Shown here in pieces: positions 3,285 to 61,100 of a stretch of 64,000 nt of DNA (position 1 is its first letter; every line of letters begins with the position of its first letter). The notes under the pieces were generated by a model. The model was not told where the DNA came from. It did not search any database and saw only the letters and a program-made list of their open reading frames with translations. Origin of the DNA: Candidatus Omnitrophota bacterium (GTDB lineage Bacteria > Omnitrophota > Gorgyraeia > Velamenicoccales > JABMQK01); contig JAQTSV010000001.1 in assembly GCA_028711115.1 (NCBI GenBank), positions 1,432,928 through 1,496,927 of the forward strand, in the 5' to 3' direction. Both the position numbers and the translations under genes were made by a program.

Positions 3285-3312
3285 AAGCTTCTTAAAGTTA
3301 ATTTATTTCAAA

Positions 3313-3789: not shown

Positions 3790-3801
3790 AATTATTGCCT
3801 C

Positions 3802-4236
3802 CTATATATTCTCTTCGCCAATCCAGGCTCCATGTATATTGCACAGTTCAACCACAGAAAGTTTCCCTGATACTGCCTTAAAGTGCAACGCACCTGCGGG
3901 ATGCAGTTTCTCGGGAGTCAGTATTATCCTGGAGATAAACTCATTATCCAAATAAAAATCAAGATGCATAATATGATGTTCCGGCAACGTAGGGTGCTCG
4001 ACGCTGCCTATCTTGACATGCACATCTGTGCAGCCTTCGCCAAGCAAACCACATTTTCTTTCCATGACTATTACCGGCGTATGTTTTTCCGATAATTTCA
4101 CTTCGTCTTTCGCAGTCTTTATGGCATTCTGATTTTCTACAAAAGATGTCTTAGGTGCACCGCATACAGGACATTTATCTGGCGCGCTGCCATTTATAGA
4201 TACAAAACCACAAACCTTGCATACAAAACCTTTCAT
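3802..4236 (-). CDS. Superoxide reductase (desulfoferrodoxin/neelaredoxin family) with N-terminal rubredoxin-like zinc ribbon
   Basis: N-terminal CKVCG...CPVCG. SOR centre-II signatures are EKHTPVI, HPTLPEHHIMH and CNIHGAW. The start was moved to M13 (MKGFVCK) because AAAGGAGGtaaatATG precedes it. Confidence 0.7.
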   Translation of the reverse strand: MKGFVCKVCGFVSINGSAPDKCPVCGAPKTSFVENQNAIKTAKDEVKLSEKHTPVIVMERKCGLLGEGCTDVHVKIGSVEHPTLPEHHIMHLDFYLDNEFISRIILTPEKLHPAGALHFKAVSGKLSVVELCNIHGAWIGEENI

Positions 4237-4276
4237 ATTTACCTCCTTTGTTAAAATATTTGAGTTAAACAATAAC

Positions 4277-4738
4277 CTATTTTAATCTTCGCGGAGTAAG
4301 ATTAACTATTTCCTCTACCTTCAGAGAGATAAGGTATTGCGGCCGGGGTAAGAGTATTTCTGGATGACGAGAATGCCCCTTTTCTCCACGAACATTCTTA
4401 AGAACTCTCTGGGTTATTCTACTTGTAATCCTATCTTCCCAAGCCTTCAAAAGATCGGGTTTGATTCTGTCTTTACCTATTAATTCCGCCTTACCTTTCA
4501 GGCAATAACCTATAAATTTATGTTCATCGACGGCTGTAATGCTTATTCTAGGACTGCGCTTTAAGTTTTGAGAAGTCCTTGCCTTATAAACATCCAATAA
4601 ATAAACTCTGCCATCTGGTTCTAACCTGACTATGCCTTTACAGGAATTATGCGGAGTCCCGTTTTTATCAATGGTAGAAACAATAACAAAACTTTGATTC
4701 TGAAAAAAATTAACTATTTTTTGAGTTAATTTAGCCAT
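4277..4738 (-). CDS. Pyridoxamine 5'-phosphate oxidase-like FMN-binding split-barrel protein
   Basis: 153 aa. The N-terminal FVIVSTIDKNGTPHNS...VYLLD pattern is typical of the PNPOx-like family. Confidence 0.5.
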   Translation of the reverse strand: MAKLTQKIVNFFQNQSFVIVSTIDKNGTPHNSCKGIVRLEPDGRVYLLDVYKARTSQNLKRSPRISITAVDEHKFIGYCLKGKAELIGKDRIKPDLLKAWEDRITSRITQRVLKNVRGEKGHSRHPEILLPRPQYLISLKVEEIVNLTPRRLK

Positions 4739-4889
4739 AAAATTTCAAGAAAACTTCGTGAAGCAAACCTAAATTCTTCTAATCAGGAATAAATTTAGAC
4801 CCTGTCTTCATCGAAGAAAAATAAGAAGTTAACGCAAAAATAATTTGGGATTGCCGAATCTAGAATATATTTAAATTATCTCTCTTGCG

Positions 4890-5366
4890 TTATCCTTTGA
4901 GATTTTCAAACATTTCTTCGTGAGTTATTTCCTCGCCAAGTATATGCGTAACCAGCTGATACGTATCGTGGTCTTTGCCGAATGTCTTCTTGGCAATCTT
5001 GTCATAGACCTCGATGGCACCGGCTTCTGCAGCTGCAACTATCTTCATAATCTCAGCATAATCCGCAAGCTTTTTCATAACCCCAGGATATGCAGCATTG
5101 GCATTGCCTTCTAATTTAGAAGGCGCATTCGTGGGCAGTCCGCCTAACTCGATAATTCTTTCTGCTACTTCTCCGGCATGCTCGAGTTCGTCTTTTGCTA
5201 TCTTATTTAGAAACTCAGCCATATCTTCGTATCCTAGTCCTTCTACTGCCTGGGCCATATACCAATATGCGTAAAATGCAAGCCACTCATCACAATATGC
5301 CCTGTCCAAATCCTTAATGAGATCTTTTAAATCCACGCCTGCGATTTCTCTCGCTTTCTTTCCCAT
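4890..5366 (-). CDS. Ferritin/Dps-like (DpsL/bacterioferritin-type) diiron protein
   Basis: 158 aa. Ferroxidase-type ExxH motifs KDELEHAG and GEEITHEE. Confidence 0.6.
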   Translation of the reverse strand: MGKKAREIAGVDLKDLIKDLDRAYCDEWLAFYAYWYMAQAVEGLGYEDMAEFLNKIAKDELEHAGEVAERIIELGGLPTNAPSKLEGNANAAYPGVMKKLADYAEIMKIVAAAEAGAIEVYDKIAKKTFGKDHDTYQLVTHILGEEITHEEMFENLKG

Positions 5367-5499
5367 TTCCTACCTCCTTATTTGTTTGGGGTTTATCTTT
5401 GGTTTAATTTGCTCATTATGTTAGATTATACTATCTGCATCCATATTGTTTCTTTGTTATTATCCACTCACCTCCTTTAAGGCTATACTGGTATTATTT

Positions 5500-5661
5500 C
5501 TATTCGATCTTTTCAAAATTATCTTTACTCACGCCGCATTCAGGGCACACCCAGTCACCGGGCAAATCTGCAAAAGCAGTGCCAGGCTTTATTCCATTGT
5601 CAGGATCGCCAATTGCTGGATCATACACATAACCACAGACTATACAACGATACTTATCCAT
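5500..5661 (-). CDS. rub: Rubredoxin
   Basis: Not in the track (53 aa). My translation is [53 protein letters not shown]. It has the two canonical CxxCG knuckles and the conserved DLPDDW-like segment. Confidence 0.9.
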
Positions 5662-5675
5662 ATTTTATCCCCCGT

Positions 5676-5861
5676 TTACTCAGTTTTCAATTCGCTAATC
5701 TTTTTCTCAATTAAATTTCTGTGTTTTTGTTCTTCATTTGCTAAAAATAAGAAAATATCCTTGGCTGCTGCAAATTCTCTATAAAATTTCTGATATAATT
5801 CTATGGCTTCTTTTTCCTTAGACAATGCTAACTCTAATGCCTCTACCGGTCCCATTTGCAT
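5676..5861 (-). CDS. Small ferritin-like/rubrerythrin-like helical protein (single ExxH)
   Basis: 61 aa. EALELALSKEKEAIELY...LANEEQKHRNLIE resembles half of a diiron four-helix bundle. Confidence 0.4.
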   Translation of the reverse strand: MQMGPVEALELALSKEKEAIELYQKFYREFAAAKDIFLFLANEEQKHRNLIEKKISELKTE

Positions 5862-5874
5862 CTCCTCCTTGATA

Positions 5875-7065
5875 TTACTTATTAATTATTCTGGCAAAGC
5901 TCTTGCCATATTCATAACAACTTTTAAGTTCATTGCCGTCGGGGACGTATCTGACAGAAAGCGAAGGCTGGGCTATTTCTATGCCTGCCTCTTTTAAGGT
6001 ATCTTCTATATTTTTTACTGCGCCTCCTGCCCAGCCATACGAACCAAACACGGCTGCAATTCTTTCTTTGGGCTTCAACCCTTTTAAAAAGTGTAAAAAA
6101 CCCGCCATATTGGGAAGCATATCGTTATCATGCGTGGAAGAACCGATAATATAACCCTTGCTGTCCAGCATCTCTTTTATGATTTCTGTGCGGTCAGATT
6201 GAGTTACGTCAAAAAGTTTCACATTCAGTCCTGCATCTGTAATTCCTTCGACTATTTTTCTGGCCATCTTTTCTGTGGCCTGCCACATTGTTTCATATAT
6301 GACCGCGACTTTCGGTTTTGTTTCATTTTTTGCCCAGCTCAAATAGGCATTTACTATTTTCATGGGATCTTTGCGCCAAATGATTCCGTGGCTGGGTGCA
6401 ATAATCTTAATAGGAATATTCGCTTTTATGAGCTCCTGAATCTTTTTTAAAACCAGGGGGCTTAACGGCCAAAGTATATTGCCATAGTATTTCGCTGCCT
6501 CCTCCATAAGCGCATATCCGTCGACTTCGTCATCGAACCTCTGGTTCGTCGCATAGTGCTGGCCAAAGGCATCGTTAGGCAGAAGAATCTGGTCTTCTAT
6601 CAAATAGCTGAACATGCTGTCTGGCCAATGCAGCATCGGCGCCTCATTAAAAGTCAAAGTCTTTTTGCCTAATTTTAATTTATCGCCGGTTTTTACGACC
6701 TGAAAATCCCAGTTGCCATAGTAGTGTTTATCCAATCCCTCTTTGCATTTAGCCGTGCCAAAAACCTTTGCCTTGGGGCATAATTTAAGTATAGCGGGCA
6801 ATGCGCCTGAATGGTCTGTCTCCACATGATTGGCAATAATATAATCAATCTTTTCTGGGACAATTATTTGTTTTATATTCTCAATCATCTCAGCTGCAAA
6901 AGGCCCGTAAACGGTATCCACTAACGCAACTTTATCGTCTATAATTAGGTAGGCATTGTAAGTTGTACCTCTGCTCGTAGAATAAGTATGGCCGTGAAAA
7001 TTTCTCACATTCCAATCCACAGCTCCCACCCAATAAACATCCGGAATTACTTTTAGAGCAGACAT
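5875..7065 (-). CDS. fprA: Flavodiiron protein (A-type flavoprotein, O2/NO reductase)
   Basis: 396 aa. Metallo-beta-lactamase-like domain with diiron motif NHVETDHSGA, followed by a C-terminal flavodoxin-like domain (VAVIYETMWQATEKMA...). Confidence 0.85.
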   Translation of the reverse strand: MSALKVIPDVYWVGAVDWNVRNFHGHTYSTSRGTTYNAYLIIDDKVALVDTVYGPFAAEMIENIKQIIVPEKIDYIIANHVETDHSGALPAILKLCPKAKVFGTAKCKEGLDKHYYGNWDFQVVKTGDKLKLGKKTLTFNEAPMLHWPDSMFSYLIEDQILLPNDAFGQHYATNQRFDDEVDGYALMEEAAKYYGNILWPLSPLVLKKIQELIKANIPIKIIAPSHGIIWRKDPMKIVNAYLSWAKNETKPKVAVIYETMWQATEKMARKIVEGITDAGLNVKLFDVTQSDRTEIIKEMLDSKGYIIGSSTHDNDMLPNMAGFLHFLKGLKPKERIAAVFGSYGWAGGAVKNIEDTLKEAGIEIAQPSLSVRYVPDGNELKSCYEYGKSFARIINK

Positions 7066-7159
7066 AACTTTCTCCTATGTTTTAAACTTTATCAAAATCT
7101 TTATTTAAGGTAATATTATACCTCAAAAATGCTTAATAAGACTATTTAAAAATATGCTG

Positions 7160-7864
7160 CTAATAACCGATAAAATTCTCGGTCTTTACATTTTCTTTAT
7201 TAAAACCCGCCTCTAAACATAAATTTTTCATCGCCTCTACCATCTTGGGAGGGCCAAAAATAAAAAATATCCTCTCATCTAAAGCCTTGAATTTCTCCGT
7301 CAATAAATCTTTATTTATCTGTCCGAAGATACAGCGTTTATCTTTGGGCTCGCATTCAGTAACTGTATAAAATACCTTTATATTGCTGTTTGCGGATGCC
7401 CATAGGTCTAATTCTTTTCGAAAAGCGATGTCTTCTTCTGTTTTATTGGAATAAAGCAATGTAACATCTGTGTCCAATTTCTTATCCATTATATATTCGA
7501 TAATAGAAATTACCGGTGTTATGCCTATGCCGCCGATTAGAAATCCTATTTTCTTATACTCGTCTTTGAAAACGCAGCTGCCCAAAGGCGCCTTGAATAA
7601 AATCTCGTCGCCTTCCTCTAAATTCTTCAATCTCTGCGAGAATTGGCTGGCACTCAATCTCTTGGTTACCTCGATATAATCTTTTGTGGGAGAAGAAGAA
7701 AAAGAAAGATACTTATTTAACTCCTGATTGGACACATTGGTTTCATCAAAGATAATTTGTAAAAACTGTCCGGCTGTAAACTGTATCTTTTCCTCAGGAA
7801 GAAACCTAAAGCTCTCTATGCCGGCAGTCCTTTTTATCCTTTCGGTTAATTTTCCTCTTGCCAT
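7160..7864 (-). CDS. Ferredoxin-NADP reductase-like FAD/NAD(P)-binding oxidoreductase
   Basis: 234 aa. FAD-binding RxYS-like KYLSFSSSP and NAD-binding GGIGITPV, with FNR-like module order. Confidence 0.65.
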   Translation of the reverse strand: MARGKLTERIKRTAGIESFRFLPEEKIQFTAGQFLQIIFDETNVSNQELNKYLSFSSSPTKDYIEVTKRLSASQFSQRLKNLEEGDEILFKAPLGSCVFKDEYKKIGFLIGGIGITPVISIIEYIMDKKLDTDVTLLYSNKTEEDIAFRKELDLWASANSNIKVFYTVTECEPKDKRCIFGQINKDLLTEKFKALDERIFFIFGPPKMVEAMKNLCLEAGFNKENVKTENFIGY

Positions 7865-45447: not shown

Positions 45448-45837
45448 TTATTGTCTGAGCATCTTCAAAACTCTTGAAAATGCAATCAGCCGTGGGCAAT
45501 CGAAAACAACGCCTGTCCTACAATTTTCCGCACCAACCTTCTGTGACCAAACTACTCTTCCCTTTAAGTTGATAGGCTCAAAACCATCTGAGACGTCTAT
45601 CCACATTTCTAAGGGAGTTCTGGGCTCCAGCTCTTGTTCTGTCTCAATGCCGACCCCTCCGGCACCGATATCTGTGCATTTGCCTTCGCCCCTTCTGCCG
45701 ACATTTAGGTTGCGAAAACGAGTCGGAAAATTCACTCTAAATCTACTGAACATGCGTTGTTCTTTCTGCGTGTCAGTCTTTTTAGAATCACTGTCTTCCC
45801 GTGGCACTTCATTAGATTTAAAGCGGGGGTATATCAT
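45448..45837 (-). CDS. PilZ domain protein (putative c-di-GMP receptor)
   Basis: The start was moved to MIYPRFK because AAAGGAGGTGaaaaaATG precedes it. RxxxR (QRMFSRFR) and D-x-S/G-x-x-G (DIGAGGVGI) PilZ motifs are present. Confidence 0.6.
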   Translation of the reverse strand: MIYPRFKSNEVPREDSDSKKTDTQKEQRMFSRFRVNFPTRFRNLNVGRRGEGKCTDIGAGGVGIETEQELEPRTPLEMWIDVSDGFEPINLKGRVVWSQKVGAENCRTGVVFDCPRLIAFSRVLKMLRQ

Positions 45838-46182: not shown

Positions 46183-49100
46183 TTACCTGGGATAACCAAG
46201 TAATTCCTCATTTATCGGCCTTGCTGGCGCCATAATAAAGCCATCAAATCCCAAACCGTTTCTTTCCAAACCAATAATTCCTAATCTGTTGGAAAAATTA
46301 AACCCGGGCTTTCTCAATCTGTTAGCCAATGGCGAGGAGGCGGAAATATTTTTAGTTAAAAATACGTAACTTATTTGCGTGGCTGTCTTGGACTCAACTA
46401 TTCTGGTCTTTCCCACAAAAGGCCTTAAGGCATTTTCCAGATTTTGGATAGTCATTGTAGGTGCTATATTAAATATAGTATGGACTACTGTCGCGCCACG
46501 ATTAAGATGATCTGCAATAAAATTAACCACAGCATCAAAATGCATCTGGTCAGCTTCCGTCCATAGCAAAGGAATAGTGGAAAGATAAACGAGATCATAT
46601 TTCTTACGGCTGGTATTTCCTAAAATAATATCTTCTTGCTCAATTTGAAGTCTACCATCTCTTATTTTTTTCGCAATCTGTCTCCTTCTTTCTTCAGCTA
46701 AAAGAAAACCGTAAGAATAAGCAATATCTTCCCGAATATATCGGCGAGCCACCGGGTCAATAATAAAATCATCAACAATTCTCTGGAATATTCCCAGAAA
46801 TTCTTCTGCTTTATTATCCAAAATAGAACCAACAACGTCTTGGGTATATTTAACCTGGTCAGGATTAATATCGATTGCTTGGACAAAACCCGCTTTCTCC
46901 AAGAATAAAAATGGAATCGCAACAGTCCCTACAGTTAATATCCGATCATCTGCGCTTATCTCTAGCTCATCTATTATTTCCTGCGGCGTCTCCATTTGCG
47001 GCACCCAAGTAAAAGAAAAAGGCAGCATTTCTTGTATTTGGTGAATCGCATTATAAATTACATCTTTGCGGAATACAGCCGCGGTTTGCAGTTGAGCGGC
47101 CATATAAACTCCCATCATTATCGCTGTATAGATTTCATCACTAAGCAATCTTAAATCAAAAACCTGCATAAAATCTGGGGCTATAACTATTAATCCTTCG
47201 GGACCGTAATTTATAGCGGTTTCAATCCAATTTTCTACCATTCTAGCAGTAAGCCGGTCTCCTTCCATTTCCTTAAATCCGGGTATTTCTTGACGGAAGG
47301 TGTCTAATAGTTCTTGAGCTGTAGGTTTATCGCTTAAAACTGGCGAGGAGGCAGAGGGCTTTATCCGCTCGCTAACATCAAAGAAATCTCTTCTGACCAA
47401 AACTTGACTTTTTGAGCTCTCTACAATAATATCAGCCTGTTTAATCTGGCTTCTTACGATAGGAGCCTCTGTATGCTGAAGCTCTATATTCTTCCAAATG
47501 GCTTCTTGCAGAGTATAACCACGCTCTCTCATATCGCGTTGAATTTGTCTTTCAAAACAAATATCAAATGATTCATCCATGTATATCTTGATATCCAATA
47601 AATCTTTTAACTGCTCTAGGGCATAGGCGTATTGTCCCTCAATAATAACTATATCTAATTGATTGGGATCAATAAGCTCTCCTTGTCCAATTTCACCGCT
47701 TGAAGGTATATAAATAGCTGGCCTAAATGTTTGGTGTTCCTGTAAATTACGGATATGCTCTTCTAATAAATCTAAATTTAATTTATCTAATCCCCGAAGA
47801 TTTTTAGCGCGTCTTTCTGCACGGGATTTCAGATAAGCATCTATTCTCATGATGAGAACGTGCAGTCTTTTATCTTTCATAAACAATCTTCTCAATTCTT
47901 CCGCCATCGTGGTTTTACCTGCTCCAGCTTCACCAGTAATACCCACGAATAATAAATGACCTTTCTTTTGTTTTTGAAGAAGCAAATGCTCTATTTGTCT
48001 TGCTACGGGCAAGACTACATCTGTTACTCTTTGATATTCCTCACTGATTTCTGAAAATAGAGACGGATAATGAGGAACAATAATTTCATAACCGCTATGA
48101 AAATAGAAATATGAATCGAAAGTTTCCCTATCAATCTCATCTTGATCTCTTGCTTCAATAAGTCTCTTGGTTAGCTTTTGTATTGCGGCCATAGGGTCAT
48201 CATTGATTGCCTTGGACAAAGACATAACTTTTCCATGCCATTTAATGAGCGCCTCGCCATCTAGATTTTTAAGACTTTGTTTAAGTAATTTATCAATGTT
48301 ATCCACCGGCGAGGAGGCGGGGGCTGCCGGGTTTTCATCTCCGGAAACACTTGACTTTTCTGTTATCAACTCTTCTAAAATCTGTCGTTTTTGCCTAAAG
48401 ATATTGTTTTTAAAATAATGTTTCTTATTAACAAAATCAAAAATCTCCCGAAGCTCTTCAGAGTTAAAATAATTGAAGAATTCTCTAAATAACTTATTCC
48501 TCACAAGAGAAAACAGAACTTTTAATGCTCGTTCATTTCTTTTCATTCCCTCTTTTGCCATATTGTCTCGGAATATCAAAACAAGATCTGTCAATCTTCT
48601 ATTTCGGATAAGAAATGAAGTAATAAAAGCCTCCCGCTCAGGGGTTTTTGTTTCTAATTTAATTATTATTAGAATATGGACGGATCGAGGATTAAATTGC
48701 GAAGTAATTAAATCATTCATATATCTCACCGTTGTGCCTGTATTAAAAAGGTCGTCGAATAAAATAATATTCAAATCGCTCAAGTCAACACCTGGAGGAA
48801 AATATTGCTTTTGTTGTTCTATCTTTTCTCTTCGCTTTTCCTGAGACGGAATACCAGAATAAACAGCATAAGATGGTTTCTGGGCATATGAAGAAATATA
48901 TAAAATGCCTAAATCTTGGGCAATCTGTTTAGCCAATTCCCCCGCCGCTGTCAAAGTGTCCCTATTGGGGGACCCTGTAATAATGACCCAACGGACAGGA
49001 TCTCGTTCTATCTCTTCTCCATAGACTTCTTTAATTTTCCTTATAATAAGTTGCCTAAAATATTGTTCCGCTTGACGTGAACGAAACTTAAAGCCTGAAA

Positions 49101-52100
49101 ACATTTCCAAAAGTTCGGATTGCGACGATATATTTTCATCATTTACAAAGAATATATATTCCTCTCTTGGTGCCGTCACAGCTTGGAGCGGCGAGGAGGC
49201 GGTAGCGCCGGATATAGATATCCTTCTGGCAATATCTTCTATCGCCGATTCAATTTGCGATAATAATCGCGGGTTGGTGAAATACTGTTTTAATGTCGAG
49301 GTAAACTCGATTTCTTCATAGCCTTTATTTAAATCTCTGTTTAACGATTCTTTTAATTCCGCTACAGTAATATAGTTTACCTGTGCGACTGCCAATATGC
49401 CGCGTTCTCTTATACGCCTGTTTATTTCATCGGCAGCCAATGAAACAACAATTAGATATAAATTGCTGTTCTCTCTGTTATTTAGCTGACTCTGGTAATA
49501 ATACGCACCGTCTGTACCATAACCTTCGGCGTCAGGAGATATATCGGGCCTGCCTATTTTTCTGGAATCAATATTAATTCTCGTGGGCTCAAGCATCATA
49601 TCCTTTCTCATTATCGCCACTTCGTCCTCCGCCTCCGATAAAATCGTAGACATCTCATCAATAACCAAAGGAACGTGGCCGGCAATCGAAATATCCCATT
49701 TGTCGGGGGAAGAGCCCACGTGTTCCTTGCCGCCTCTTTTCTGCAGAAGAATTTCTCCTTTTGGATTTATTACAAAAACGTGCACTGTCCTGTGCCAATC
49801 ACCGTCCACATGCACAGCTCTTCTTTGTTTAAATAAACCCGTCGCCAAGCCTTGTTCGTCCAGTAATTCCAAATAAGCCCAAACTCTGACTTTGCCGCCT
49901 TCGTCGTATTTTAAGCGGCTCAAGGCCTCGCCCAATTCTTCTTCGCTTGTATTTAACCCTTGGCACATATCAACTTTAGAAACAACAATTCTCCCCAATT
50001 CCAACTTATAATCATCGGGCAAAGTTGCGACTGCTTTGGCTTCTTTAATCTCCATTAAATATCTGATTAACTCAACCGGATTATTCCTAAAATAATTTAT
50101 ACGTTCTTCATAGGAATTCCTGTTCCCCACCGGCGAGGAGGCGGAAGGCAAATAAATACCCTCAGGAGTCAATTTCACAACACCAAAAAAGACTTCACTG
50201 CTAATGGTGCATCCCGGATGAACCGGTAAACATCTACAGTCAAGCATATCGCTTTCTAACCCTGCTTTCCTTAATAAAGGATCCCAGCATCCATTATAAA
50301 AATCCTTGCTAAAGACAGCAAATCCACTTGGCTTTAGGTGATTATAAAGGTCATTTAAAATAGGCTGCATTTTGCTGGTATGGATGTTATATCGCGGGTT
50401 GTAAACTTGCTCGCTTGTCGGTTCAGGGCAGTGCCACATAATAACATTATAATCCATATCTAATCCTTCAATTCCATCGTGCAGAAATACCCTTGTATTA
50501 TCTACCAAGCCCAACCTTTTAAGATTGTAACGTGTAAGCCAAATGCATTTTTCGTCTATGTCAATAGCGTCGACTCTGGCTCCTTTTAACCTAGCAGCGA
50601 TAGTATCTAAGCCGTTACCGCAACCGATAACCAAAACCTTGTCCCCTGGTTTTACAAAATTAGCTTTCCCCATAGCCAAAACCATACGCATACACTCGTA
50701 TTTGCGTATCTCGCTTATATAGGGCTGTGTTTTTGTCGAGTAAATTCCCGGATAATTATAAATTTGATAATTTTCGCCAAAAATCGTCACATTGATCAAC
50801 CATAGGTTGTCAGCATTAAAACCTTCGAATTCTGCATCTTCACCATTCACTGATTCTGTATTCAATCCAGCGAGAGATGGGTCTGAAATGGAAAGATTTG
50901 TTAATCCCAACACCGGCGAGGAGGCGGATTCCTCGAATAATTCTGGAATCTTTTCCCCAAGCAAACCAAGAACTCTCTCGTTGTCAGCAAATATAATTCC
51001 GAGGCGTTCTCCGCCGATTTTTCTTAATTCTAGCGATAGTTTGTTTCTCTCCAAAGAACCCATAAAACCTTCAAAATATTCAGAGCCAATAGCTAGCCTT
51101 AACGAATCATCGCTCAAATACTCGCCCATACCGTTAGCCCAAACCATATACCATAATATGGCCGCAGCAACAGTATGGCAGGCGTGTTCGTTGGATTCAG
51201 ATTCCGTAAGGAGATTGTTTTCGGTAACGCAGACATTAAACATGTTCGCTGTCAAATCAGGAGAAATGTTAAATAACGCTGTTTGCAGACCGCCATGCCA
51301 TCCCCTCGCCTCATTCATAATACGAAATGTAATGCGGTGATTGACAAAATAACATGCTGTTAGCAAGTCACATGCGCTGCAGTAAGGATCCCAAACAATA
51401 TACATAAGTATGTCGTGTGCGGAAACATCTGGTTTATCAAAATGTTCCAAAATTTCTTTTGCTTTATCTAAATGTTTTTGCGAAGGCACCGGCCATTTCC
51501 ATACTCCGTTTTGCTTCCAATGAATATCCATATATCTTTCCGCATCAAATTCCTCCACCGGCGAGGAGGCGACTTCTCTATCAACGATTTCAAAACCTAT
51601 TACACAACCCAAACCGCCTCCGCCAGCCGGTAAAATCTCAATTGGCGAAAGCAGTTCTACAAGTCTATCTGACTTAACGCCTCTTTCGAGTAAAAGCGTT
51701 TTTGTCCTGTGAGCATTATTTATAACAATAATGAAATCGCTGCCATCTGGTATTTTGCTTAAGCAAGCCACATTAAGATAGGCTTCTTCTTCTGGTATTA
51801 TGACTAAATCTTGCCATAATCCTTGTTCTGTTAACAGGCGCTCAAATTCAGGATGTTTTTTAACTTCCTGATAATATATGGGGTCAATTATAATAAGAGG
51901 CCTTCCCGTAGTTACGCAGCCTCCAGGAATAATTTCCATAACAGTATTTAGATGCCTATTTTGTAAAAATATTTCTCTGCCTCCGGGCAATCTTAAAGTA
52001 ACATAGCCGGAAGGTAACTGATAAAATGATAGATCGGTAAATGAATTCCTTAATATATCTACCGCTTCTTCATCAACGGAATCGGCAAATACCATAAAAG

Positions 52101-55100
52101 GAGTCTTGGCTATTCCTGATATTACCGCTCCCTGCTCTCCGGCAGAAATAGCATCATCAAATCTAGACACATTCCAAATAACCCATTTCTCATCAGGGGA
52201 AATAACCATTCTATCTTGCGGCCACTCAACGGAATTTCCCCACTGCTTTTTGTCTTCTTCGGAGAGGACTCTAAAATTGATTTTATTCTGCCTTAACGTA
52301 TTTTCTATTATAGAGAATTCTGTTCCTGGTGCTTGCTCGGCCAAGCTGAAAAATAGACGGGCAAAGTAAACAGGTATAAAGCCCTTTCTTAACTTCTCTG
52401 ATTTCCAAATAGAATCTCTTTGCTGCCATTGCTCAAAAGCAGAATCTATCATCCCAACGCTTCCTGCCAGCATGGTTAATCTTTCTCTAACTAGGGCTTT
52501 TAACTGTTCGCGCTGAACAACATCATTCATGCGAGATTCAATAGCCATAAACAGATCAGCATAATTAGATAAATTAACATCCCATGAGTTATTTCTTCCG
52601 ACTACTGCGGATAACTTCTTTTGTGGTGGTATCTGTTCAATACGGCCACCATAAACAGATAAATCATTGTCTTTGCCTTTTTTTCCCACCGGCGAGGAGG
52701 CATATTCAGTCTTCCGATTTTCAGTTGGGGCTAAATCCTGAGTTTCGTCTCGAAGCTGTATGTGATAATTCCAATAATGAGGCGTTGAGTATGGAAATTC
52801 TTCTCTTTCAAAAGACAAAAGACCTTCCTTTCTTAATCTTTCTATTAATCTTAGGGACGACTCATTATCACAGGCAATTGTTAATTCTAATTTTTCGATG
52901 CCATTGTTTCTCAGCTTATTAATTAAATAGGTATAAAGACATCTTCCGATACCTTGATTTCTATTGTCATTTTTTACTGCTATAAATAACAACTCACCAA
53001 CACCCTCAGAGAAGATAATGCGGAATATACAATAGGCTATAGTCTTTCTTTTTTCTTTGACCAATATAATATTCCCCTGAAATTTCTCTGAAAACTGGCG
53101 TTCCTCATTGGCAAATCTGGCTATTAACTGTTTCCATTCATTGAAAAGTTTCTTATCTACTTTTTTTATTGCGCTGCGTAAATTTGAATAAAAATATTCC
53201 GATAAAGGCGCTTCGTATAACTTAACTCCTTTTAAACTACCTGTATCTGCTAACGTAGTCTCCACTGGAGTTAAGCGCACAATACCTCTACTTAAGCGAT
53301 TTCTAATAAGACGGGGCAAATACGAGATTGCTAATCTATAAGGCTCCCAATTTATCTCCACCGGCGAGGAGGCGGTGCCGTTTTTACTAATTCTAAATCT
53401 GGTTTTAAAAAACTGGTATGTTATACCTTTATGAATTTGGACTTCCATGCCTAACTCATCCAATAAAGCTAAGGCAACCGGCAGATGGGATATTTTGGCT
53501 GCTATTTCTCTGCAGGTTTCTGTGGATAAAACTTCGTCGCCTTGCAACTCCATGCCTTTAATCTGCTCTATCACAGATTCCTCCACAAAAAGCGGAACAT
53601 AAAATACGCCGTTTAATGAAAAGTATTTGGTTTGTGCTTCTTTAAAGCAATCCTGAATATCTCTTTGGCTAAATTCATTCTTAAGAAGGCGAACTATAGC
53701 AGTAATAAAGCGCTTAAATTCTTCAGGATTTAGTTTTGCATAAATTCTTCTGATATCAGAGTGCGTCGGGATATTGCTATCTATTACTAATTCTATAGAA
53801 CCGTTGGGCTTGAACACTATCTTTTGCTCAGGTCTATTAATTTCTGTTTGCTTATCCGCAGATACTGGTGGTTCGACTTTCAACGTTCTGAAAATATTGA
53901 CTGCTCTACCACTATAGATTAACGAAGATATGCCAACTTTTGTCTTTGATTTTAATTCTGGATAGGCACCCTCTAGTTCCGCCCTTAAAATATCTACTAT
54001 TTTCTTTGAGAATGGAAACGCCTTGTCATCATAAATAAAGGAAAGTATAATCTCAACAGAAATAATACTTGTCAATTCCAATAATACTTTAAAAATCTTT
54101 CTGTAATGTTCGATATACTTTTTAATGATACCTTTCTGCCTGAGCGTTTCTATGATTTGGGCATCAAACTTTTCTGAATAACCCTCGCCTCCACAGACTT
54201 CTTCTACCACCTCTATTACATCTGGATAAAATGGATGTATGGAAACTATTACGCTTATTTTAATACCATCTAACTTAAGTTGACGCAGGTACGATACGCC
54301 TCTGCCATAGAATTCTCTAATCAAGACCTGGCTTTCGTATTCGGAAATTCCATGTGTATTCAATACGAAATGATACTGTCCTAAAACTTTATAGCACAGG
54401 AAAATAATTTCTAATAACTTGGGGTGATTAAATGGATCACTGCCAAGATAAAATTGCACTGGATTTACAGTGCTCTGTCGCCACCCAACACTGTTAATTT
54501 GTAGTAATAATTCTTCAATTGTATTAACTCGCATTTGGTTAATAAAGCGGCACATTCTTGAAGGAACACAACAATGTGCGCAAGGATTAAAGCATCCTTC
54601 TGTAATCTGAATTACGATTGCATCTCCTAATCTTAGCAATGCTCTTTTATGCCCCACAGGCATAGATTGAGATAAAAATATATTTTCTTCGCACTCCTCC
54701 ACCGGCGAGGAGGCGGATATTTGGGAATTCTTTCCGGATGAAGATGAATCGGGAAATAATAATTTCAGGGTTTTCTGTTCCCAATATAATAAATCCCAAG
54801 CCAAATATTTTAATCTCAAGAACATAAAAGCAAAAGGAACTCTGCGCATCCCGGCAACTTTTGAATTAGCCGATACATCTTTTCCAATGTAAATTAAAAA
54901 TACATTGCCGTTATTGAAAACCATTATCTTATCTTTACTGGAATCGTATTGCGCCTTTAAAACAATGCTTCTTTCAAAAATTTCCCTTAAAGTCATTCCT
55001 GTATTGATAGGTTGGTTAATTTTATCCGGCGATATCAATACTTTCAGGCTATTGGCAAAGTGATCGGCCTGGCAGGGTTTCACAGGCACAATGTTGGTGA

Positions 55101-58100
55101 AACCATTGCAGTTTAAAACCACGGCCAGAGATGTGTCGATTGATTCAGCAGCCAAATCTCCTCTTCTAGAAGCGCCGCCGACACGCCTGAGTTTATCATC
55201 TGAGCCATTTCTTCCTTTGTTTTCTAATCTGGACACAATGGTTAAATTACTGTATCGGCGAAAATCATTACCTTTTTCCAATACCCCATTGCCTGACATC
55301 TTTACAATTCCATCGCGGATTAATCTTGGAATGTTTGTTTCTGTGACAGAAATCCTTACGAGGTTGCCTTTTTTGATAAATTCCATAATCCGGTTTTCTT
55401 GTCCCTGTGGATACGAGGTGCAAGTAATCATGGAAACAAAATCCATATTGTCAATTTGGTAACGATTAAAAATTTCTTCATAATCAGGGTGATCAAACGG
55501 CTCATTGTCAAAATATAATCCGCTTAATACAAGATATCTTGCGTAATTACCAAAAAGATAAAACAGCGCTTCTTTGGTAAATCTCGCCCTGAGTTTTCCC
55601 GGCCGGGCAGCGCAGAACCAACATCTGACAGAACAACCCAGCGTCGGCTCAATGGCAGCCGTATTCCTAAGGATTAACCTTAAATCTCTCTTATTGAATC
55701 CAGCAAACAATTGTTTCATCTCTTCTAAATCAAAAATATTGATTTCCGAACCCGCAACTGGCGAGGAGGCGGTTTTGTTTATTGTGGGCGTTATTTCTTT
55801 ACGGTGCGCCCTGAGAGAAATATAGGTATTCCATAAAATATCTGTCATATTAAGAATGGCTAGTCGGAAATTATTAATCAAAGATGGGCTTAAATTGAAA
55901 TATCCCACTATAAACGGCAAAACAATGAAGGCAAAAGGATCTACTGTTAAGCCCCAAAATAAAATATCTTTTTTGCAAGTAGGCATAAAATTAACTTTCA
56001 GCGATTCTTTGGCTTGCCTGGCAGCATCTTTCGAAAACAATTCATTCAAAGAACTTTTTGATAGAAATACCATGCCGGGATAATATACCAAATACGCAAA
56101 AGGAGCGAACATAACAGACTGAAGAATAATTTTGAAGACGTTGGATAGTATGCTCGTCCCTAGAATATTCAAGAATGCAAGCCAGTAATGAAGTACTATG
56201 CCGTCGGTCAATACCATAATCGTGACAAAGTTAAACATCCTGCGGAAATTGAATTTTATGTTTTTCGCGGGATTTCCATTGTGTGTAATTTTCTGGGCGA
56301 TAAAATCACCTATCGCAGATAAGAAAAACACCGTACAGATATCGGATAGCAAAGGACTGGTCGCCAATAATAACAAATACAAACGCCAGGCAGATTCCAT
56401 AACAGCCCAAATCGGCAAAAGGAAAATAACCGGGCCAAGAACAAAACTTAAAATGACGATAATTTTAACCCGCCACTTTAAATTATTCGATATCGGCGAA
56501 GAGGCGGTTCGACTTCGTTCACCACTAGCGCGCAACGATGAGGAAACCCCGAGTGAAACGAGGGGCGAGGAGCTGGCGCTACCCGCAGGATAGGCGATTA
56601 CAACTTTCGTGCGGCCGTTTTCGCATACAAACTGGCTTTCGCCGCCAATTTGATTAATAAGATTTTTGATTATGAGTACGCCTCTGCCGTGGGTTTTAAA
56701 AAGATTCTCGTCGAGCGTCGGATCATTTAATCCTGCTACATTAAACTCGCCGTTATTTTCCACGCTGAAGAAAAATTCCCTGCCTTTAATTCCATAAATT
56801 ATTTTTATATCCCCGCCTTCTCTGTGATAAATTGCATTGTTCACTGCTTCGCTGACGCAAAGAGCCACATCAGCAGCCTCGCTTTCCGAAAAACCATTTT
56901 CCATAAGATTTGCCTCGAAAGAATTTACAAAACTTTGCATCTGGACAGACATCTCATTGCAAGATGAATCCTTGATAATAAGAGTTTCTGTATAATGCGC
57001 CGAGCCTTCCACCGGCGAGGAGGAAAATCCTTTCTTCTGAAGAATATAGGCTCCTTCTTTAGGCTCGTTATAAAAAGGACCATTGTAACCAAAAAGAGCC
57101 CCTTGCCTTTCTAATTCTAAAAGTGTCCTATCTTCTACGGAAACCAATAAATCGCGTACTGAACTGGCGCGCTTAATTGCTCTGTCGCTATCGACAATCA
57201 CAAATCCGCCTGGCCTTAAGAATTGTTCAATGACCCGGGCTGGCAATAAAAATTTTCCGTCTTCGATATAAACATCTCCAGCTTTGATTATGATAAAATC
57301 AACACCTTGGGACATCTCTAAATATTTTGCGTAAGCATTGATCTCCAAACCGTCTGTCTTTTCAACAAAAATCAAGGAGCGCTCTCTTCCTTCTACCATA
57401 AAATTCAATTCAAAGGCTTGCGGATTGCCTTCTCTTGTTGCTAAATCAATATTTCCTCGCGCAATAATTTTTAATTCTTCCCTTAAGAAAGGCCATATTC
57501 CTTTACATATTTCTAATAAGTCGCTAGAAACAAAACCCACCAGGCACTTTTCCATCAAGTACAATGTAACGATGCCATCTTCATCTATGCGGGAAGGAGA
57601 ATTAAAGATATCCACCATCTCTCCTTTTATCATCATCATCATCGCCACCATACCATAGTGCTCAAGAAGTTTTTGCTGATACCTCTGGGAAACTGTATGT
57701 AAGTCTGCATGAAAAGGAAGTTTTTCTACAAATATATATCGGGAAGCATTAGTAGCGAAATACGCTGTGGAAATATCTGCGGCAGAACCGATTAAAAGCG
57801 CTGTTTTTTCCCGCCTGTTATCTTGTGCGGCTTTTCCATTAACAACTTCGCAAACGCGCCTTAAATAACGAAGATTCAAACCTCCTCCGACCAATTTATC
57901 TGTGGGCCAATTTATCGGCGAGGAAGATTTGTCTTTTGTCTTTTCGTGGCTGCGGCTTGGTTTTTTGGCGCTATCGCCGTAATGGGTGTGGCGGTCCTTA
58001 ATATTAGCGAAGATGATATAAAGAATGGCACTAACTAATAATATCAAAATAGTTTTTGGCGCCATAGGGTCCCTGAAAGCAATCTTAGACCACTTAATCT

Positions 58101-61100
58101 TATGCAGCCATTGCCAAGATAAAACCAAGAATAAGCCGGCTGCGCCGACGTAAATAAGCGGCAAAAATCTCTTGTATAATTGGCGTGCGGTAACAAACAA
58201 TGATGGCCTGGGCGGAAATTGAGCATCCATTGAATTTCTTATTTGAATTAGGGCTTTGTAGTAATACGTACTTGACTCTTTAGAGAGCCTGATTAATTCT
58301 CTGTAGTAATCTTCCAATACATCCGTCAAAAAGGGATTATCGTGGACAGAACCGTAAAGTTCGTCCATTTCCTGGCTTGTCCCGTCTAGTTCTTCTTCAA
58401 TAAGCATAAGCGATGTATCAAAGCTATGGGAGTTTTTGCCTAAATATTCACTATCTTCAGTCAAAAGCCGCTCTAATAAATATAAAACTCTATTAGAAAT
58501 ATCTAAGCCGTAAGGAACGGTTACAGTAATTCTTAAGTTAATACTCTGCTCTCCTCGAATAAGGCTCAACGCCTCTTCTGTCTTATTTTCACTTTTGAGA
58601 TTCAAAAGATTACCGTTAAGGTAAATCGTTATATCGACTTCAGTATATCCTTCAATAACTTTTACCATCTTGCCAAGATTCAGCAGCGAGTCCGAATCTA
58701 TCTTGGAAGCCAATACGATATTCTTTTCGACAAAGGCGGGTTTAAACCGAACCACCTTGGTGCGGCTGTCTGCGGCGAGCGGCGAAGAGGTGGCATCATT
58801 AATAAAAGGCCTGAAGGTCTGTTTCTGATGAATGATATCAACGATGGCCGACTGCCAATAGGGAGCGATAGACCCTGGCGTTAATATAAAAGCGCTAGCA
58901 CCTAAAATCTGTTCAAGTATGAATTGGTTTATTTTGCTTTGCTCAACACTCAAAAATAATTCTTCGCTTAAATGCGTTACGCCAAATCGTTTCTGCAATA
59001 AATCCCTTGCCCGTATATAGCCATATTTTCCTGGATTATATTCATCGACTAAAATCCTATCTGCATATGCCTTATCATGCTGAACCCTGGTAGGATCAAT
59101 AAGCAGAATCGGCCTGTTTTCATAATAAAAAACAATCCAGACGTGCGCAAAAGGAACACCCGCCTCTTCTGTAAAACCGTACTCAACTTCAAATGTGGTT
59201 TGGGGATAATATTTCCCTTCTCTGTTCAACACATCCATAACATTCCTTGGTTGCGGATTGAATTCATAACAGAAAAGCGAACACAGCGCACAACCAAGTA
59301 TGCAGGCAAAGTCAAAGCATATCTGTCCTTGCGCAACAGCTTCTTCATTCCTGTGTGTAAACTTTGGCGGAATCTTTGCGACATTGCGTCTGACTATCTC
59401 CCAGATACGCTTTGCATTCTCATCGCACAAGAATTCTTTTATACTTGCTACTGATTTTTCCTGTATCGGCGAGGAGGCACCAGAATCAACTTCCTCTGGT
59501 AGTTTAAGATTTGCGATTTCGCCTAACGAGGTCAGTAAACTACAGGTGGGCGAGACAGGTTGTAATGATGACCTGCCGTTACGATGTATACGACTACGCG
59601 ATGACGGTTCAACAGCTAGTGCGCGTATTAAATGGGCTGCACTTGCAGTGTCAAAGGTCAACGTTATATTAGGATCAAGACCGAGCTGCACGGTAAAAAG
59701 ACGAATTATCAATATAATATCCCTACGTAACAGCCGAAAATAGGTAGACTGAAGATTGCCATCAAGGTCGCTAAAAGAAAGTTTTTCTGAAAGGGCGCTA
59801 ATTACTCCCTTTTTATAAAAATAACAACCTATATATGCAGGATCGTATAATTCAATTTCAATTGAATCTCTTCTAGATATATAATGAATATGGCCGCGGA
59901 TGCTCATTTTATAACCTTCTATGCCCAGGTCTTTATGATTGACTTTTCCTATGGCAAAATACGACCCTTCTTTTCCTGCAGTAACGAATATGCTAAAAGG
60001 AACCGATGTGGATTGTGATTCAAGGCATTGAATCAATTGTATCCGTATCTGCCCAACATCAAATCCCATGAAATGAAGATAACCAACATTTGTGTTGTTT
60101 TTTAGCGAATCAATTACAGATTTCCGCGTCACCGGCGAGGAAGCGGAATTTTCCACCGGCGAAGAGACAGCTATATCGCCAAAGGCGCTATTTCCTTCCC
60201 CGAGAACAAAAGCAAATAAATGCTTCTTTTCTACCCTTTCCCTATGTATAACTAAATCATATTGCGGCGTATATCCATATCTTTGTTTGTGCGCTGCCAT
60301 CCTGTATTCAATAACGTCATCAAGTGCTCTTTCTTCGGCTTTTTCATAAATTTCACGCCGTAATTCGTCTCGCGCCCTGATATTAATCTTGATATCAAAA
60401 CCCAGATATTTCCTATGAGAAAAACTTCCAACCCAAGGTTCTGTTTTTAAGGCTTCAAATCCCTCCAATACAACCACGTCATATTTTCTTGAATCAGCAA
60501 GATTAATAATTTCTTGTGCCGCAGCTTCGTGATCCCACTCATCTATCCATTCTGCGGGTCGTTCTGACCACTCCGCTGCGCCAATCACTATGGATGGGCT
60601 CTTAAATTCCTGCCTGAAGAAATCATTTAACCGTACAATAATATAGGTAAACGGTAAATCAAAATGGGTTTCCCAATTATCCAAGAACGTGGATTTGCCG
60701 GTTGCTGCGTCGCCGTCGACAACAACCAAGATAGTCCTTTTCTTATGGACTTTTGATATCCTGTCATAAATAGCGCCTATGGTTTTACGGACTGCATTTC
60801 TAGTAGAACTTGTGCCGCGATGCTCTATCTCCATAAATGAGGTGCGCGACAATTTAACGGTTGCTTTCATTCTAAAGAATTTTTCGTTGTTTAATAATGT
60901 CGTTATTGATTTACGGCGCGCGTCGTCATTCTGCAATCTCTTAAGAAGGCGGCTATGGACGACAAATGTTGACTGTAAAGGATGAATAAGATGGTCAGCT
61001 TCATCGGAGAAAATCATTTCGCGAAGATTCTGAAAATCATTGCTGTAGTGTTTCTCTAAATATGCTGGTGGCCGCACGACATACCAAGAAAGAAATACTT

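What the first reader, a model, noticed from the sequence alone, without database searches (positions are those of the whole stretch)
46342..50910. Module set points to nucleoside/nucleotide tailoring chemistry fused into one polypeptide
The 3' 5 kb encodes, in order, a class I methyltransferase, a Nudix-fold domain, a type I PRTase (ILFDDLFNTGTTV), a uridine-kinase-like P-loop kinase (GITGEAGAGKTT ... RQIQRDMRERG) and a SAM-binding-like domain. A second Udk-like P-loop sits in M2. Together with the two radical SAM modules, GNAT and amidino/deiminase-like modules, this resembles the enzyme repertoire of nucleoside-antibiotic pathways, of nucleobase hypermodification, or of nucleotide-second-messenger systems. 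That functional reading is inference only. The Nudix box is partly degenerate, so some modules may be binding rather than catalytic.
Basis: inference. Interest (0 to 1): 0.6.

Follow-up and report, generated by a model that had tools for sequence, protein, structure and literature searches.

The report
Punctuated giant multi-enzyme protein, Omnitrophota
The five enzyme domains are real, but they are the tail of a 15,478-residue Omnitrophota giant protein whose modules are separated by a repeated five-residue linker (ASSPV), which may mark where such giants are cut into separate enzymes.

Summary
Window 46342-50910 (minus strand) encodes, in order, a class I methyltransferase, a Nudix-fold domain, a type I PRTase, a PRK/uridine-kinase-family P-loop kinase and a second class I methyltransferase fold.

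These are the last five modules of one ORF that is open to the window edge. The source assembly, labelled Candidatus Omnitrophota, calls it at 15,478 aa. It fits the published "multi-enzyme" class of Omnitrophota giant proteins.

The nucleotide-tailoring reading is only partly supported. Three folds suit ribose-phosphate or nucleotide substrates, and PRTase, Nudix, kinase, radical SAM and methyltransferase domains recur together in other multidomain proteins. But no module reaches any curated family cutoff, module order is not conserved, and there is no defence-system or gene-cluster context.

The more interesting feature is punctuation. [A/S]SSP[V/I/L] occurs 22 times (0.09 expected), always between modules, mostly as GCC TCC TCG CCG GTG. 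Related giants carry the same or their own linker (ASSS[AVIL], RAEVR, NHGMSQGED). Two giant genes on one contig share a variant.

My best reading is that these are recognition sites for processing a polyprotein. That is inferred, not shown. The papers I could read do not describe it.

The parts
46183..64000 (-). C-terminal 5,938 codons, plus stop at 46183-46185, of one giant ORF that is open to the window edge. The source assembly calls it at 15,478 aa.
50911..50925 (-). Linker ASSPV (GCCTCCTCGCCGGTG), upstream boundary of M14
50143..50910 (-). M14: class I SAM methyltransferase, PrmA/MTS-like (Pfam core 50308-50709)
50128..50142 (-). Linker ASSPV
   Evidence: pLDDT about 34 in the model
49201..50127 (-). 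M15: poorly modelled N-terminal region plus a Nudix-fold core (49201-49794) with a degenerate Nudix box
49186..49200 (-). Linker ASSPL
   Evidence: pLDDT about 30-34
48319..49185 (-). M16: type I phosphoribosyltransferase with intact PRPP loop (Pfam core 48628-49062)
48304..48318 (-). Linker ASSPV
47353..48303 (-). M17: ~110-aa helical N-terminal extension plus PRK/uridine-kinase-family P-loop kinase (core 47410-47949)
47338..47352 (-). Linker ASSPV
46342..47337 (-). M18: helical N-terminal region plus class I methyltransferase fold (core about 46354-46986). No Pfam family; weak DUF3419 hits in relatives.
46327..46341 (-). Last linker, ASSPL
46186..46326 (-). 47-aa C-terminal tail after the last linker; function unknown
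51556..63771 (-). Sixteen further in-frame linkers upstream: 63757, 63688, 61462, 60154, 60130, 59464, 58777, 57913, 57010, 56560, 56491, 55756, 54700, 53359, 52687, 51556 (start of each 15-mer). They bound modules that include HATPase_c, a multi-pass membrane module, two radical SAM, a GNAT and several Pfam-dark modules.
45448..45837 (-). PilZ-domain gene directly downstream of the giant ORF. A PilZ gene also adjoins the related giants in L124 and L180.

Best explanation
The region is the last five modules of a giant 'beads-on-a-string' ORF (15,478 aa in the source assembly) in a Candidatus Omnitrophota genome. Each module is an enzyme-sized unit of about 150-450 aa. Here they are methyltransferase, Nudix, PRTase, PRK/Udk-type kinase and a second methyltransferase fold. 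They have no membrane segments and need SAM, PRPP and ATP, so they should work in the cytoplasm, most plausibly on ribose-phosphate or nucleotide-type small molecules.

The modules are joined by a fixed peptide, [A/S]-S-S-P-[V/I/L], in disordered segments. I propose that this peptide is a recognition site for a lineage-specific factor, most likely an endopeptidase. On this view the giant is made as a polyprotein and cut into, or hinged at, individual enzymes, as in viral polyproteins or MARTX toxins.

Shown: the anatomy, the folds, the statistics of the linker, its position at domain boundaries, its conservation across related giants, and its sharing by two giant genes on one contig. Inferred: cleavage, the identity of the recogniser, and the substrates.
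For: Anatomy and source. The ORF is open for 5,938 codons to the window edge. The gene is called at 15,478 aa in GCA_028716625.1, and the same C-terminus appears in an independent Logan assembly. NCBI labels the window's proteins Candidatus Omnitrophota.

Linker statistics. There are 22 sites against 0.09 expected, with a median spacing of 288 aa. All lie in one frame and only inside this gene: 15 DNA matches against 0.02 expected.

Linkers sit at domain boundaries. No Pfam envelope crosses a linker. Homology to other proteins runs from linker to linker. The linker-containing ends of the M15 model have pLDDT 30-34, and the last residues of the M18 model (NISA, directly before the next linker) have pLDDT 43.

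Generality. In each of the four long hits of at least 4,000 aa, and in the fragment P0005, the commonest 4-mer is a spaced linker. P0002 and P0005 use xSSP[VIL] (16 and 6 sites). P0010 uses ASSS[AVIL] (16). P0013 uses RAEVR (13). P0032 uses NHGMSQGED (13). Expected counts are all below 0.4. Five multidomain relatives of 1.1-2 kaa have no such motif.

Protein-level selection. In L123 and L125 the motif is kept with varied synonymous codons, including both TCN and AGY serine codons.

Shared within a genome. A second giant gene on the opposite strand of the L125 contig uses the same ASSS-type variant: 8 sites against 0.18 expected. This favours a trans-acting recogniser.

Literature. West-Roberts et al. 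propose proteolysis of Omnitrophota giants and state that cleavage points are unknown.
Against: There is no direct evidence of cleavage. No recognisable peptidase domain was found in the visible 5,938 aa or elsewhere in the window, and the N-terminal 9,540 aa could not be read.

In this gene the linker is conserved at codon level (GCC/TCC/TCG/CCG/GTG; per-codon binomial P from 2.6e-5 to 2.8e-14). The linker is also the only DNA similarity to another giant-gene fragment, L126. A peptide signal alone does not need that, so gene conversion or a DNA/RNA-level role may contribute.

Proline next to a scissile bond is unfavourable for many proteases (from general knowledge, not tested).

Substrate assignments rest on superfamily-level similarity only.
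Confidence: 0.5

Rival explanations
1. One reading: the modules form one coherent nucleoside/nucleotide tailoring pathway (antibiotic-like, base hypermodification or second-messenger chemistry) that works as an uncleaved assembly line.
For: Nudix, PRTase and PRK/Udk folds suit nucleotide or ribose-phosphate substrates. PRTase_3, NUDIX, radical SAM, SLOG, ARMT1-like and P-loop kinase domains co-occur in P0109, P0130 and P0093. There are PADLOC domain hits to mad2, PsyrT and ShosT.
Against: No curated family cutoff is reached. No other protein shares two of these modules or their order. There is no carrier or docking logic and no cluster or defence-system partners nearby. The same ORF also carries unrelated modules: HATPase, a membrane module, GNAT and Pfam-dark modules.
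Confidence: 0.2
2. The linkers are mainly DNA-level joints. A short, in-frame, GC-rich sequence is kept uniform by recombination or gene conversion and lets modules be inserted, deleted or swapped between giant genes without breaking the frame. The peptide is a by-product.
For: Codon-level uniformity in this gene, L124, L126 and L180. The linkers are the only DNA similarity between this gene and L126. Module content is mosaic between giants. Very short 'empty' inter-linker segments of 3 to 18 residues could be deletion scars.
Against: In L123 and L125 the peptide motif persists while codons vary, which indicates selection on the peptide. Fifteen bases is short for homologous recombination (general knowledge). 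No recombinase or inverted-repeat structure is associated with the linkers.
Confidence: 0.2
3. It is an uncleaved, membrane-anchored scaffold protein, and the linkers are simply flexible hinges or sites of modification such as phosphorylation or glycosylation of Ser.
For: There are two membrane modules in the visible part (about 2 and about 5-6 hydrophobic helices). The linkers are predicted to be disordered. Published views describe giants as membrane-associated coats.
Against: A hinge needs no fixed five-residue sequence, no hydrophobic residue after Pro, and no sharing between two giant genes on one contig.
Confidence: 0.15
4. It is a MARTX-like multi-effector toxin. The modules are effectors (PRTase, Nudix, GNAT, radical SAM, methyltransferases) delivered into prey and released there.
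For: Omnitrophota include predators, and their giant proteins are linked to predation. PRTase hits PsyrT/ShosT toxin models. The architecture is modular with inter-module sites.
Against: No secretion, translocation or autoprocessing domain was seen in the visible third. The modules need cytoplasmic cofactors, which prey cytoplasm would also supply. No toxin-immunity gene is adjacent.
Confidence: 0.1
5. It is an artefact: an assembly chimera or a run of separate genes misread as one ORF.
For: It is a metagenome-assembled genome, and no self-hit was found in the protein libraries.
Against: 17.8 kb is free of stops in 40% GC DNA. The same sequence occurs in an NCBI MAG and a Logan assembly, and the neighbours occur in three MAGs. 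The linkers contain no stop or Shine-Dalgarno sequence, whereas ordinary genes in the window use GGAGG-type leaders. The linker codons TCG and CCG are used freely inside modules, so a recoded stop is excluded.
Confidence: 0.03

Closest known systems
Omnitrophota giant ORFs: 'Archaeovorin'-type proteins (West-Roberts et al. 2023, bioRxiv 10.1101/2023.11.21.568195) and the 'multi-enzyme metabolic cluster' class of proteins of at least 10 kaa (Nielsen & Lui 2026, bioRxiv 10.64898/2026.06.07.730766)
   Same: Same phylum label. A very long single ORF tiled by many different enzyme domains (methyltransferase, radical SAM, NUDIX, HATPase_c, GNAT, kinases), with scattered membrane segments and domains highly divergent from ordinary homologues.
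   Different: At 15,478 aa it is below the 30,000-aa bar used for Archaeovorins. Glycosyltransferase, glycoside hydrolase, C39/S8 peptidase and SecA-like domains were not seen in the visible third. A text search of these two papers for 'linker', 'motif', 'polyprotein' and 'cleav' found no description of a conserved inter-module linker, and the first states that cleavage points are unknown.
Viral polyproteins (for example picornavirus 3C or potyvirus NIa sites)
   Same: One ORF, many functional units, and a short lineage-specific peptide repeated at every unit boundary.
   Different: This is a cellular chromosome. No protease has been identified and cleavage is not shown. The units are metabolic-type enzymes.
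MARTX toxins
   Same: A very large bacterial protein carrying an array of unrelated enzymatic modules separated by short processing sites.
   Different: No RTX repeats or cysteine protease domain were seen. The linker is a fixed pentapeptide rather than a Leu-containing loop. No secretion context is present.
Uridine kinase-UPRT fusion proteins (UCKL1/UKL type) and the nucleotide-centric conflict-system domains PRTase_3 (ComF-like) and SLOG
   Same: A PRTase sits next to a Udk-family kinase. Relatives of M16 hit PRTase_3 and co-occur with SLOG, Nudix and radical SAM.
   Different: M16 itself reaches only the generic Pribosyltran model. M17 is closer to phosphoribulokinase than to uridine kinase. 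The order is PRTase then kinase. The comparison with UCKL1 rests on my own knowledge and was not tested.
PKS/NRPS megasynthases
   Same: Multi-module giant enzymes with inter-module linkers.
   Different: No carrier proteins, condensation or ketosynthase domains. The modules are unrelated stand-alone-type enzymes.

Membership tests
Class I SAM-dependent methyltransferase (M14) | Rossmann-like fold with motif I GxGxG and an acidic residue ending strand 2 | tested here: met
   VLVIGCGNG and AIDID are present. Pfam PrmA, MTS and Methyltransf_25 score 4e-6 to 3e-5, with PrmA and MTS above their gathering scores.
Class I SAM-dependent methyltransferase (M18) | Methyltransferase fold; motif I glycine-rich loop | tested here: inconclusive
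   The fold is met: AF2 pLDDT 86, and 465 PDB methyltransferase hits at E<1e-3. Motif I is degenerate (LTVGTVAIP where relatives have LTVGGA), while the acidic D in AIDINP is kept. SAM binding was not tested.
Nudix hydrolase (M15) | Nudix fold | tested here: met
   Foldseek: IPP isomerase 7.8e-8, RppH, NUDT22, YfcD, with target-normalised TM-score 0.63-0.77.
Nudix hydrolase (M15) | Nudix box GX5EX7REUXEEXGU | tested here: not met
   Only the acidic cluster survives (SEAEDEVAI). Pfam NUDIX scores 18.1 bits against a cutoff of 21.1.
Type 1 IPP isomerase (M15) | Equivalog score; catalytic Cys in the NSCCGHP motif | tested here: not met
   NCBIfam 30.8 bits against a cutoff of 127. The sequence reads DISIAGHV at that place. 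The position of the catalytic Cys is from my own knowledge.
Type I phosphoribosyltransferase (M16) | PRPP-binding loop (hydrophobic x4, two acidic residues, then T/S-G-x-T) and a Pfam score above cutoff | tested here: met
   IILFDDLFNTGTTV. Pribosyltran scores 28.0 bits against a cutoff of 26.3. The loop aligns to PyrR.
Uridine kinase (Udk) / phosphoribulokinase (M17) | Membership of the PRK/Udk Pfam family with Walker A and lid motifs | tested here: met
   PF00485 scores 99.4 bits against a cutoff of 22. GEAGAGKTT and RQIQRDMRERG are present.
Uridine kinase (Udk) / phosphoribulokinase (M17) | Curated equivalog or subfamily score that would name the substrate | tested here: not met
   udk TIGR00235 scores 90.9 against a cutoff of 220.3. 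The PRK subfamily scores 104.9 against 236. PDB: PRK 1e-19, UCK2 3e-10.
Omnitrophota 'multi-enzyme metabolic cluster' giant protein (Nielsen & Lui 2026) | At least 10 kaa, Omnitrophota, many distinct Pfam families with none dominating by copy number | tested here: met
   15,478 aa. NCBI label Omnitrophota. At least 9 different families and no detectable paralogy between modules in the visible part.
Archaeovorin (West-Roberts 2023) | At least 30,000 aa; glycosyltransferases, glycoside hydrolases and peptidases together with methyltransferase, radical SAM and NUDIX; N-terminal C39 or S8 peptidase; SecA-like domains | tested here: inconclusive
   The length criterion is not met. Methyltransferase, radical SAM and NUDIX are present. 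GT, GH, peptidase and SecA domains were not seen in the visible C-terminal 38%. The N-terminus is outside the window.
Known anti-phage defence systems (PADLOC) | Full set of system genes, not single domains | tested here: not met
   Only domain-level hits (mad2, PsyrT, ShosT), with no partner proteins in the ORF or among the neighbours.
Nucleoside-antibiotic biosynthetic cluster | Similarity to MIBiG clusters and characteristic tailoring or resistance genes | not testable with these tools
   No MIBiG library was available. The neighbours are sugar transport and glycosidase genes.
Proteolytically processed polyprotein | Repeated boundary motif | tested here: met
   22 sites against 0.09 expected, all between modules.
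Proteolytically processed polyprotein | A cognate protease and demonstrated cleavage products | not testable with these tools
   No peptidase domain is recognised in the visible part. Proteome data are needed.

The most novel reading that the evidence does not exclude
Omnitrophota giant ORFs are bacterial polyproteins. Each genome uses its own short punctuation peptide (here ASSPV; elsewhere ASSS[AVIL], RAEVR or NHGMSQGED) as the recognition site of a co-evolving endopeptidase. A 15-150 kaa translation product would then be cut into dozens of ordinary-sized enzymes. The same in-frame linker, kept uniform at DNA level, would also allow modules to be shuffled between giant genes.
Probability: 0.35. 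Interest if true: 0.85.

Novelty: new member of a known kind. Interest (0 to 1): 0.6.

Why it matters
Giant genes of Omnitrophota are published, but their function is poorly understood. The authors of the main survey state that they could not split them into units because cleavage points are unknown.

A statistically unambiguous punctuation motif at every module boundary, shared by giant genes on one contig, gives a concrete hypothesis that can be tested straight away. It offers predicted cut sites for proteomics, natural construct boundaries for structure prediction and enzymology, and a marker for tracing module shuffling.

If cleavage is confirmed, this would be a polyprotein strategy on a scale not known in cellular organisms.

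The nucleotide-chemistry reading of the last five modules is plausible, but it is of ordinary interest on its own.

Tried and rejected
Searches that led nowhere:
- The word-indexed protein search gave nothing twice. I assume 30-39% identity is too distant for its 5-mer index.
- The genome-contig scan found only Lactobacillus uridine kinases; the source genome is not in that collection.
- The metagenome scan with a 3-sequence M17 alignment returned 51 ordinary stand-alone PRK/Udk-like genes (longest ORF 744 aa) and no giants.
- Rfam and tRNA scans of the window were empty.
- PDB sequence searches for M2, M4, M12 and M15 gave nothing useful.
- Accession searches in papers and one supplement were empty.

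Ideas considered and rejected:
- Linkers as internal translation starts. They have no Shine-Dalgarno sequence and are GC-rich, while real genes in the window have GGAGG or AT-rich leaders.
- Linkers as RNA cleavage 'punctuation'. The pieces would lack stop codons (reasoning only).
- A rare-codon pause. TCG (16% of Ser) and CCG (29% of Pro) are not rare in this gene.
- A recoded stop. The same codons are used inside modules.
- Tandem duplication as the source of the repeats. The modules show no paralogy.

Regex hits for HExxH and JAMM-like motifs in P0013, and a C...H.W...D pattern in M4, are unverified leads only.

Full report
**What is at the coordinates.** The window holds one ORF on the minus strand that ends at 46183 and is still open at base 64000, giving 5,938 codons. 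A neighbouring gene places the window on contig JAQUPK010000001.1 of assembly GCA_028716625.1. There the gene is called at 15,478 aa, and an independent Logan assembly carries the same C-terminus. NCBI labels the window's proteins Candidatus Omnitrophota bacterium, and they occur in three MAGs. The finding (46342-50910) is aa 4322-5844 of the ORF, numbered from the GTG at 63873. That is exactly the last five modules.

**Check of the five domain calls.** All five hold at superfamily or fold level.
- M14 is a class I methyltransferase. Pfam gives PrmA 4e-6 and MTS 1e-5, PADLOC mad2 1e-16, and PDB PrmA 1e-4. Motif I and the acidic residue are present.
- M15 is weak by sequence: Pfam NUDIX 0.0027 (below cutoff) and NCBIfam IPP isomerase 2e-7. 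An AlphaFold model built with three homologues has a core of pLDDT 70-92 that matches Nudix structures (IPP isomerase 7.8e-8, RppH, NUDT22). Its Nudix box keeps only the acidic cluster.
- M16 is a type I PRTase with an intact PRPP loop, at 28.0 bits against a cutoff of 26.3.
- M17 is a PRK/Udk-family kinase (Pfam 3e-28) with a ~110-aa N-terminal extension. It is closer to phosphoribulokinase (PDB 1e-19) than to uridine-cytidine kinase (3e-10).
- M18 has no Pfam family, but its model (pLDDT 86, pTM 0.82) is a class I methyltransferase fold.

Upstream, the two radical SAM modules, a GNAT and a HATPase_c are confirmed. The 'second Udk-like P-loop' is only a weak generic P-loop hit, and the 'amidino/deiminase-like' module is unverified.

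**The nucleotide-chemistry reading.** No module reaches a curated NCBIfam cutoff, so no substrate can be named. PADLOC gives only single-domain hits. An exhaustive HMMER search with the last 1,200 aa found 2,337 hits. The best are single modules inside other long proteins at 36-39% identity. No protein shares two modules, and ordinary uridine kinases score much lower. Several of these relatives are labelled Omnitrophota.

At the level of domain families there is a recurring theme. P0109 combines PRTase_3, ARMT1-like phosphatase, NUDIX and radical SAM. P0130 combines methyltransferase, PRTase_3, a P-loop kinase and SLOG. P0093 combines radical SAM with an M15-like Nudix module (the Nudix match is; a P-loop there was seen by eye only). 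P0001 and P0007 join the M17-type kinase to HAD or ARMT1-like domains. So a shared ribose-phosphate or nucleotide substrate class is plausible, but a defined pathway is not shown. The genomic neighbours are a PilZ gene, a sugar ABC transporter, glycosidases, a ROK kinase and housekeeping genes of an anaerobe.

**The punctuation.** The motif [A/S/T/V]-S-S-P-[V/I/L/S] occurs 22 times in the visible ORF against 0.09 expected, with a median spacing of 288 aa. As DNA, GCCTCCTCGCCGGTG (up to 2 mismatches) occurs 15 times, all on the minus strand, all in frame and only inside this gene, against 0.02 expected. No Pfam envelope crosses a linker, and homology with other proteins runs from linker to linker. 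The linker-containing ends of the M15 model are predicted disordered (pLDDT 30-34), and the last residues of the M18 model, directly before the next linker, have pLDDT 43. Conservation is confined to about 17 bases and the flanks are unrelated. The modules show no paralogy to each other, so the repeats are not left over from tandem duplication. The one SSP inside a module (aa 4721) uses different codons.

**The same trait in related giants.** In each of the four long hits of at least 4,000 aa, and in the fragment P0005, the commonest 4-mer is a spaced linker. P0002 and P0005 use xSSP[V/I/L]. P0010 uses ASSS[A/V/I/L]. P0013 uses RAEVR. P0032 uses NHGMSQGED, often with an SSP nearby. Each has 6-16 sites against fewer than 0.4 expected. 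Five multidomain relatives of 1.1-2 kaa have none. On the contig of P0010, a second giant gene on the other strand uses the same ASSS-type variant, with 8 sites against 0.18 expected. In that one case the motif belongs to the genome rather than to a single gene. Pooling 56 SSP sites gives the consensus small-[A/S/V]-S-S-P-[V/I/L]-x.

**Peptide signal or DNA signal.** Both levels show signal.
- In L123 (P0002) and L125 (P0010) the peptide is kept while codons vary, including both TCN and AGY serine codons. That points to selection on the peptide.
- In this gene the codons are nearly fixed: GCC 14 of 15, TCC 18 of 22, TCG 20 of 22, CCG 16 of 22, GTG 10 of 12. The per-codon binomial P ranges from 2.6e-5 to 2.8e-14, although none of these codons is preferred gene-wide.
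- L124 and L180 show the same for their own linkers.
- L126, a giant-gene fragment from another Omnitrophota MAG, shares nothing with this window at DNA level except the linkers.

I read this as a functional peptide plus concerted evolution, or an added nucleic-acid-level constraint, in some lineages. I cannot separate the two.

**Mechanism.** The best-supported model is a polyprotein, or at least a string of autonomous enzymes, in which the linker is recognised by a lineage-specific factor, most simply an endopeptidase. It explains the fixed sequence, the position at every boundary, the disorder, the lineage-specific identity and the sharing between genes of one genome. It also matches the proteolysis proposed, without known sites, for Omnitrophota giants.

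Against it, no cleavage is shown and no peptidase was recognised in the visible part. M4 has a Cys...His-x-Trp...Asp pattern, seen by regex only. The N-terminal 62% of the protein could not be read.

Internal initiation, RNA punctuation, rare-codon pausing and a recoded stop were considered and set aside. The rivals still standing are an uncleaved assembly line for nucleotide chemistry, DNA-level recombination joints, simple hinges or modification sites, and a MARTX-like effector array.

**Comparison with what is known, and novelty.** The object is a new member of a published kind: the giant ORFs of Omnitrophota, and specifically the 'multi-enzyme metabolic cluster' class. It is below the size bar for 'Archaeovorins', and their glycosyl and peptidase content was not seen in the visible third. 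A text search of the two giant-gene papers (West-Roberts 2023; Nielsen & Lui 2026) for 'linker', 'motif', 'polyprotein' and 'cleav' found no description of an inter-module punctuation motif, and the first states that cleavage points are unknown. The passages on giant ORFs in Seymour 2023 do not mention one either. I cannot exclude that it is described elsewhere. The functional claims about substrates and cleavage are inference.

Noticed in passing
window 45448-45837 (-); L124 24113-24427; L180 1254-1988 and 2177-2911: A PilZ-domain gene (c-di-GMP receptor family) lies directly next to the giant gene in three independent loci. In this window and in L124 it is followed by a solute-binding-protein gene. 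This may be conserved synteny or a regulatory link.
   Followed up: partly
window 63703-63756, 60145-60153, 56506-56559 (-): Three pairs of linkers enclose only 3 to 18 residues (motif spacing 8 or 23 aa). These are 'empty' modules that could be deletion scars or released short peptides.
   Followed up: no
window 58792-59460 (-), module M4: The pattern GQICFDFA...(58 aa)...HVW...DPT resembles the Cys-His-Asp core of transglutaminase-like/papain-like peptidases, making it a candidate processing protease.
   Followed up: partly
window 46186-46326 (-): A 47-aa tail follows the last linker (ANRLRKPGFNFSNRLGIIGLERNGLGFDGFIMAPARPINEELLGYPR). It has no recognisable domain and could be a sorting or secretion signal.
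   Followed up: no
L124 10001-23989: The linker of P0032 is conserved as AAC CAC GGC ATG TCG CAG GGG GAG GAT. It contains an in-frame ATG, a GGGGAGG stretch and a GxSxG peptide pattern, and it is usually paired with an xSSP motif about 15 residues away.
   Followed up: partly
L123 (GCA_042576685.1, contig JBHPEX010000108.1): P0002, a 4,511-aa SSP-punctuated fragment with the closest M18 homologue, is labelled 'Thermoproteota archaeon' in NCBI. The 13.7-kb contig may be mis-binned, or such giants may occur outside Omnitrophota.
   Followed up: no
L125 98-12502 (+) and 15004-22502 (-): Two giant genes converge on one JGI contig, with MutL and a MutS-fragment gene between them. Both use the same ASSS-type linker.
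   Followed up: yes
window linkers at 60154, 57010, 54700, 53359, 52687, 51556, 50128, 48304 (-): Eight linkers read GCCGGTGG across the Pro-Val-next codon junction. That is one base from the E. coli Chi sequence GCTGGTGG (recalled from memory). It is probably coincidence, but it bears on the recombination idea.
   Followed up: no
window 2382-7864 (-): A cluster of oxygen-defence genes typical of anaerobes: thioredoxin-reductase-like flavoprotein, rubrerythrin, desulfoferrodoxin, ferritin-like protein, flavodiiron-type protein and an NAD-binding oxidoreductase.
   Followed up: no
window 55771-56487 (-) and 57900-58200 (-): The visible part of the giant has two hydrophobic modules: M8 with about 5-6 helices and a weak Mpv17/PMP22 hit, and the end of M5 with 2 helices. 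They sit between modules that need cytoplasmic cofactors. The topology of an uncleaved chain would be worth modelling.
   Followed up: partly
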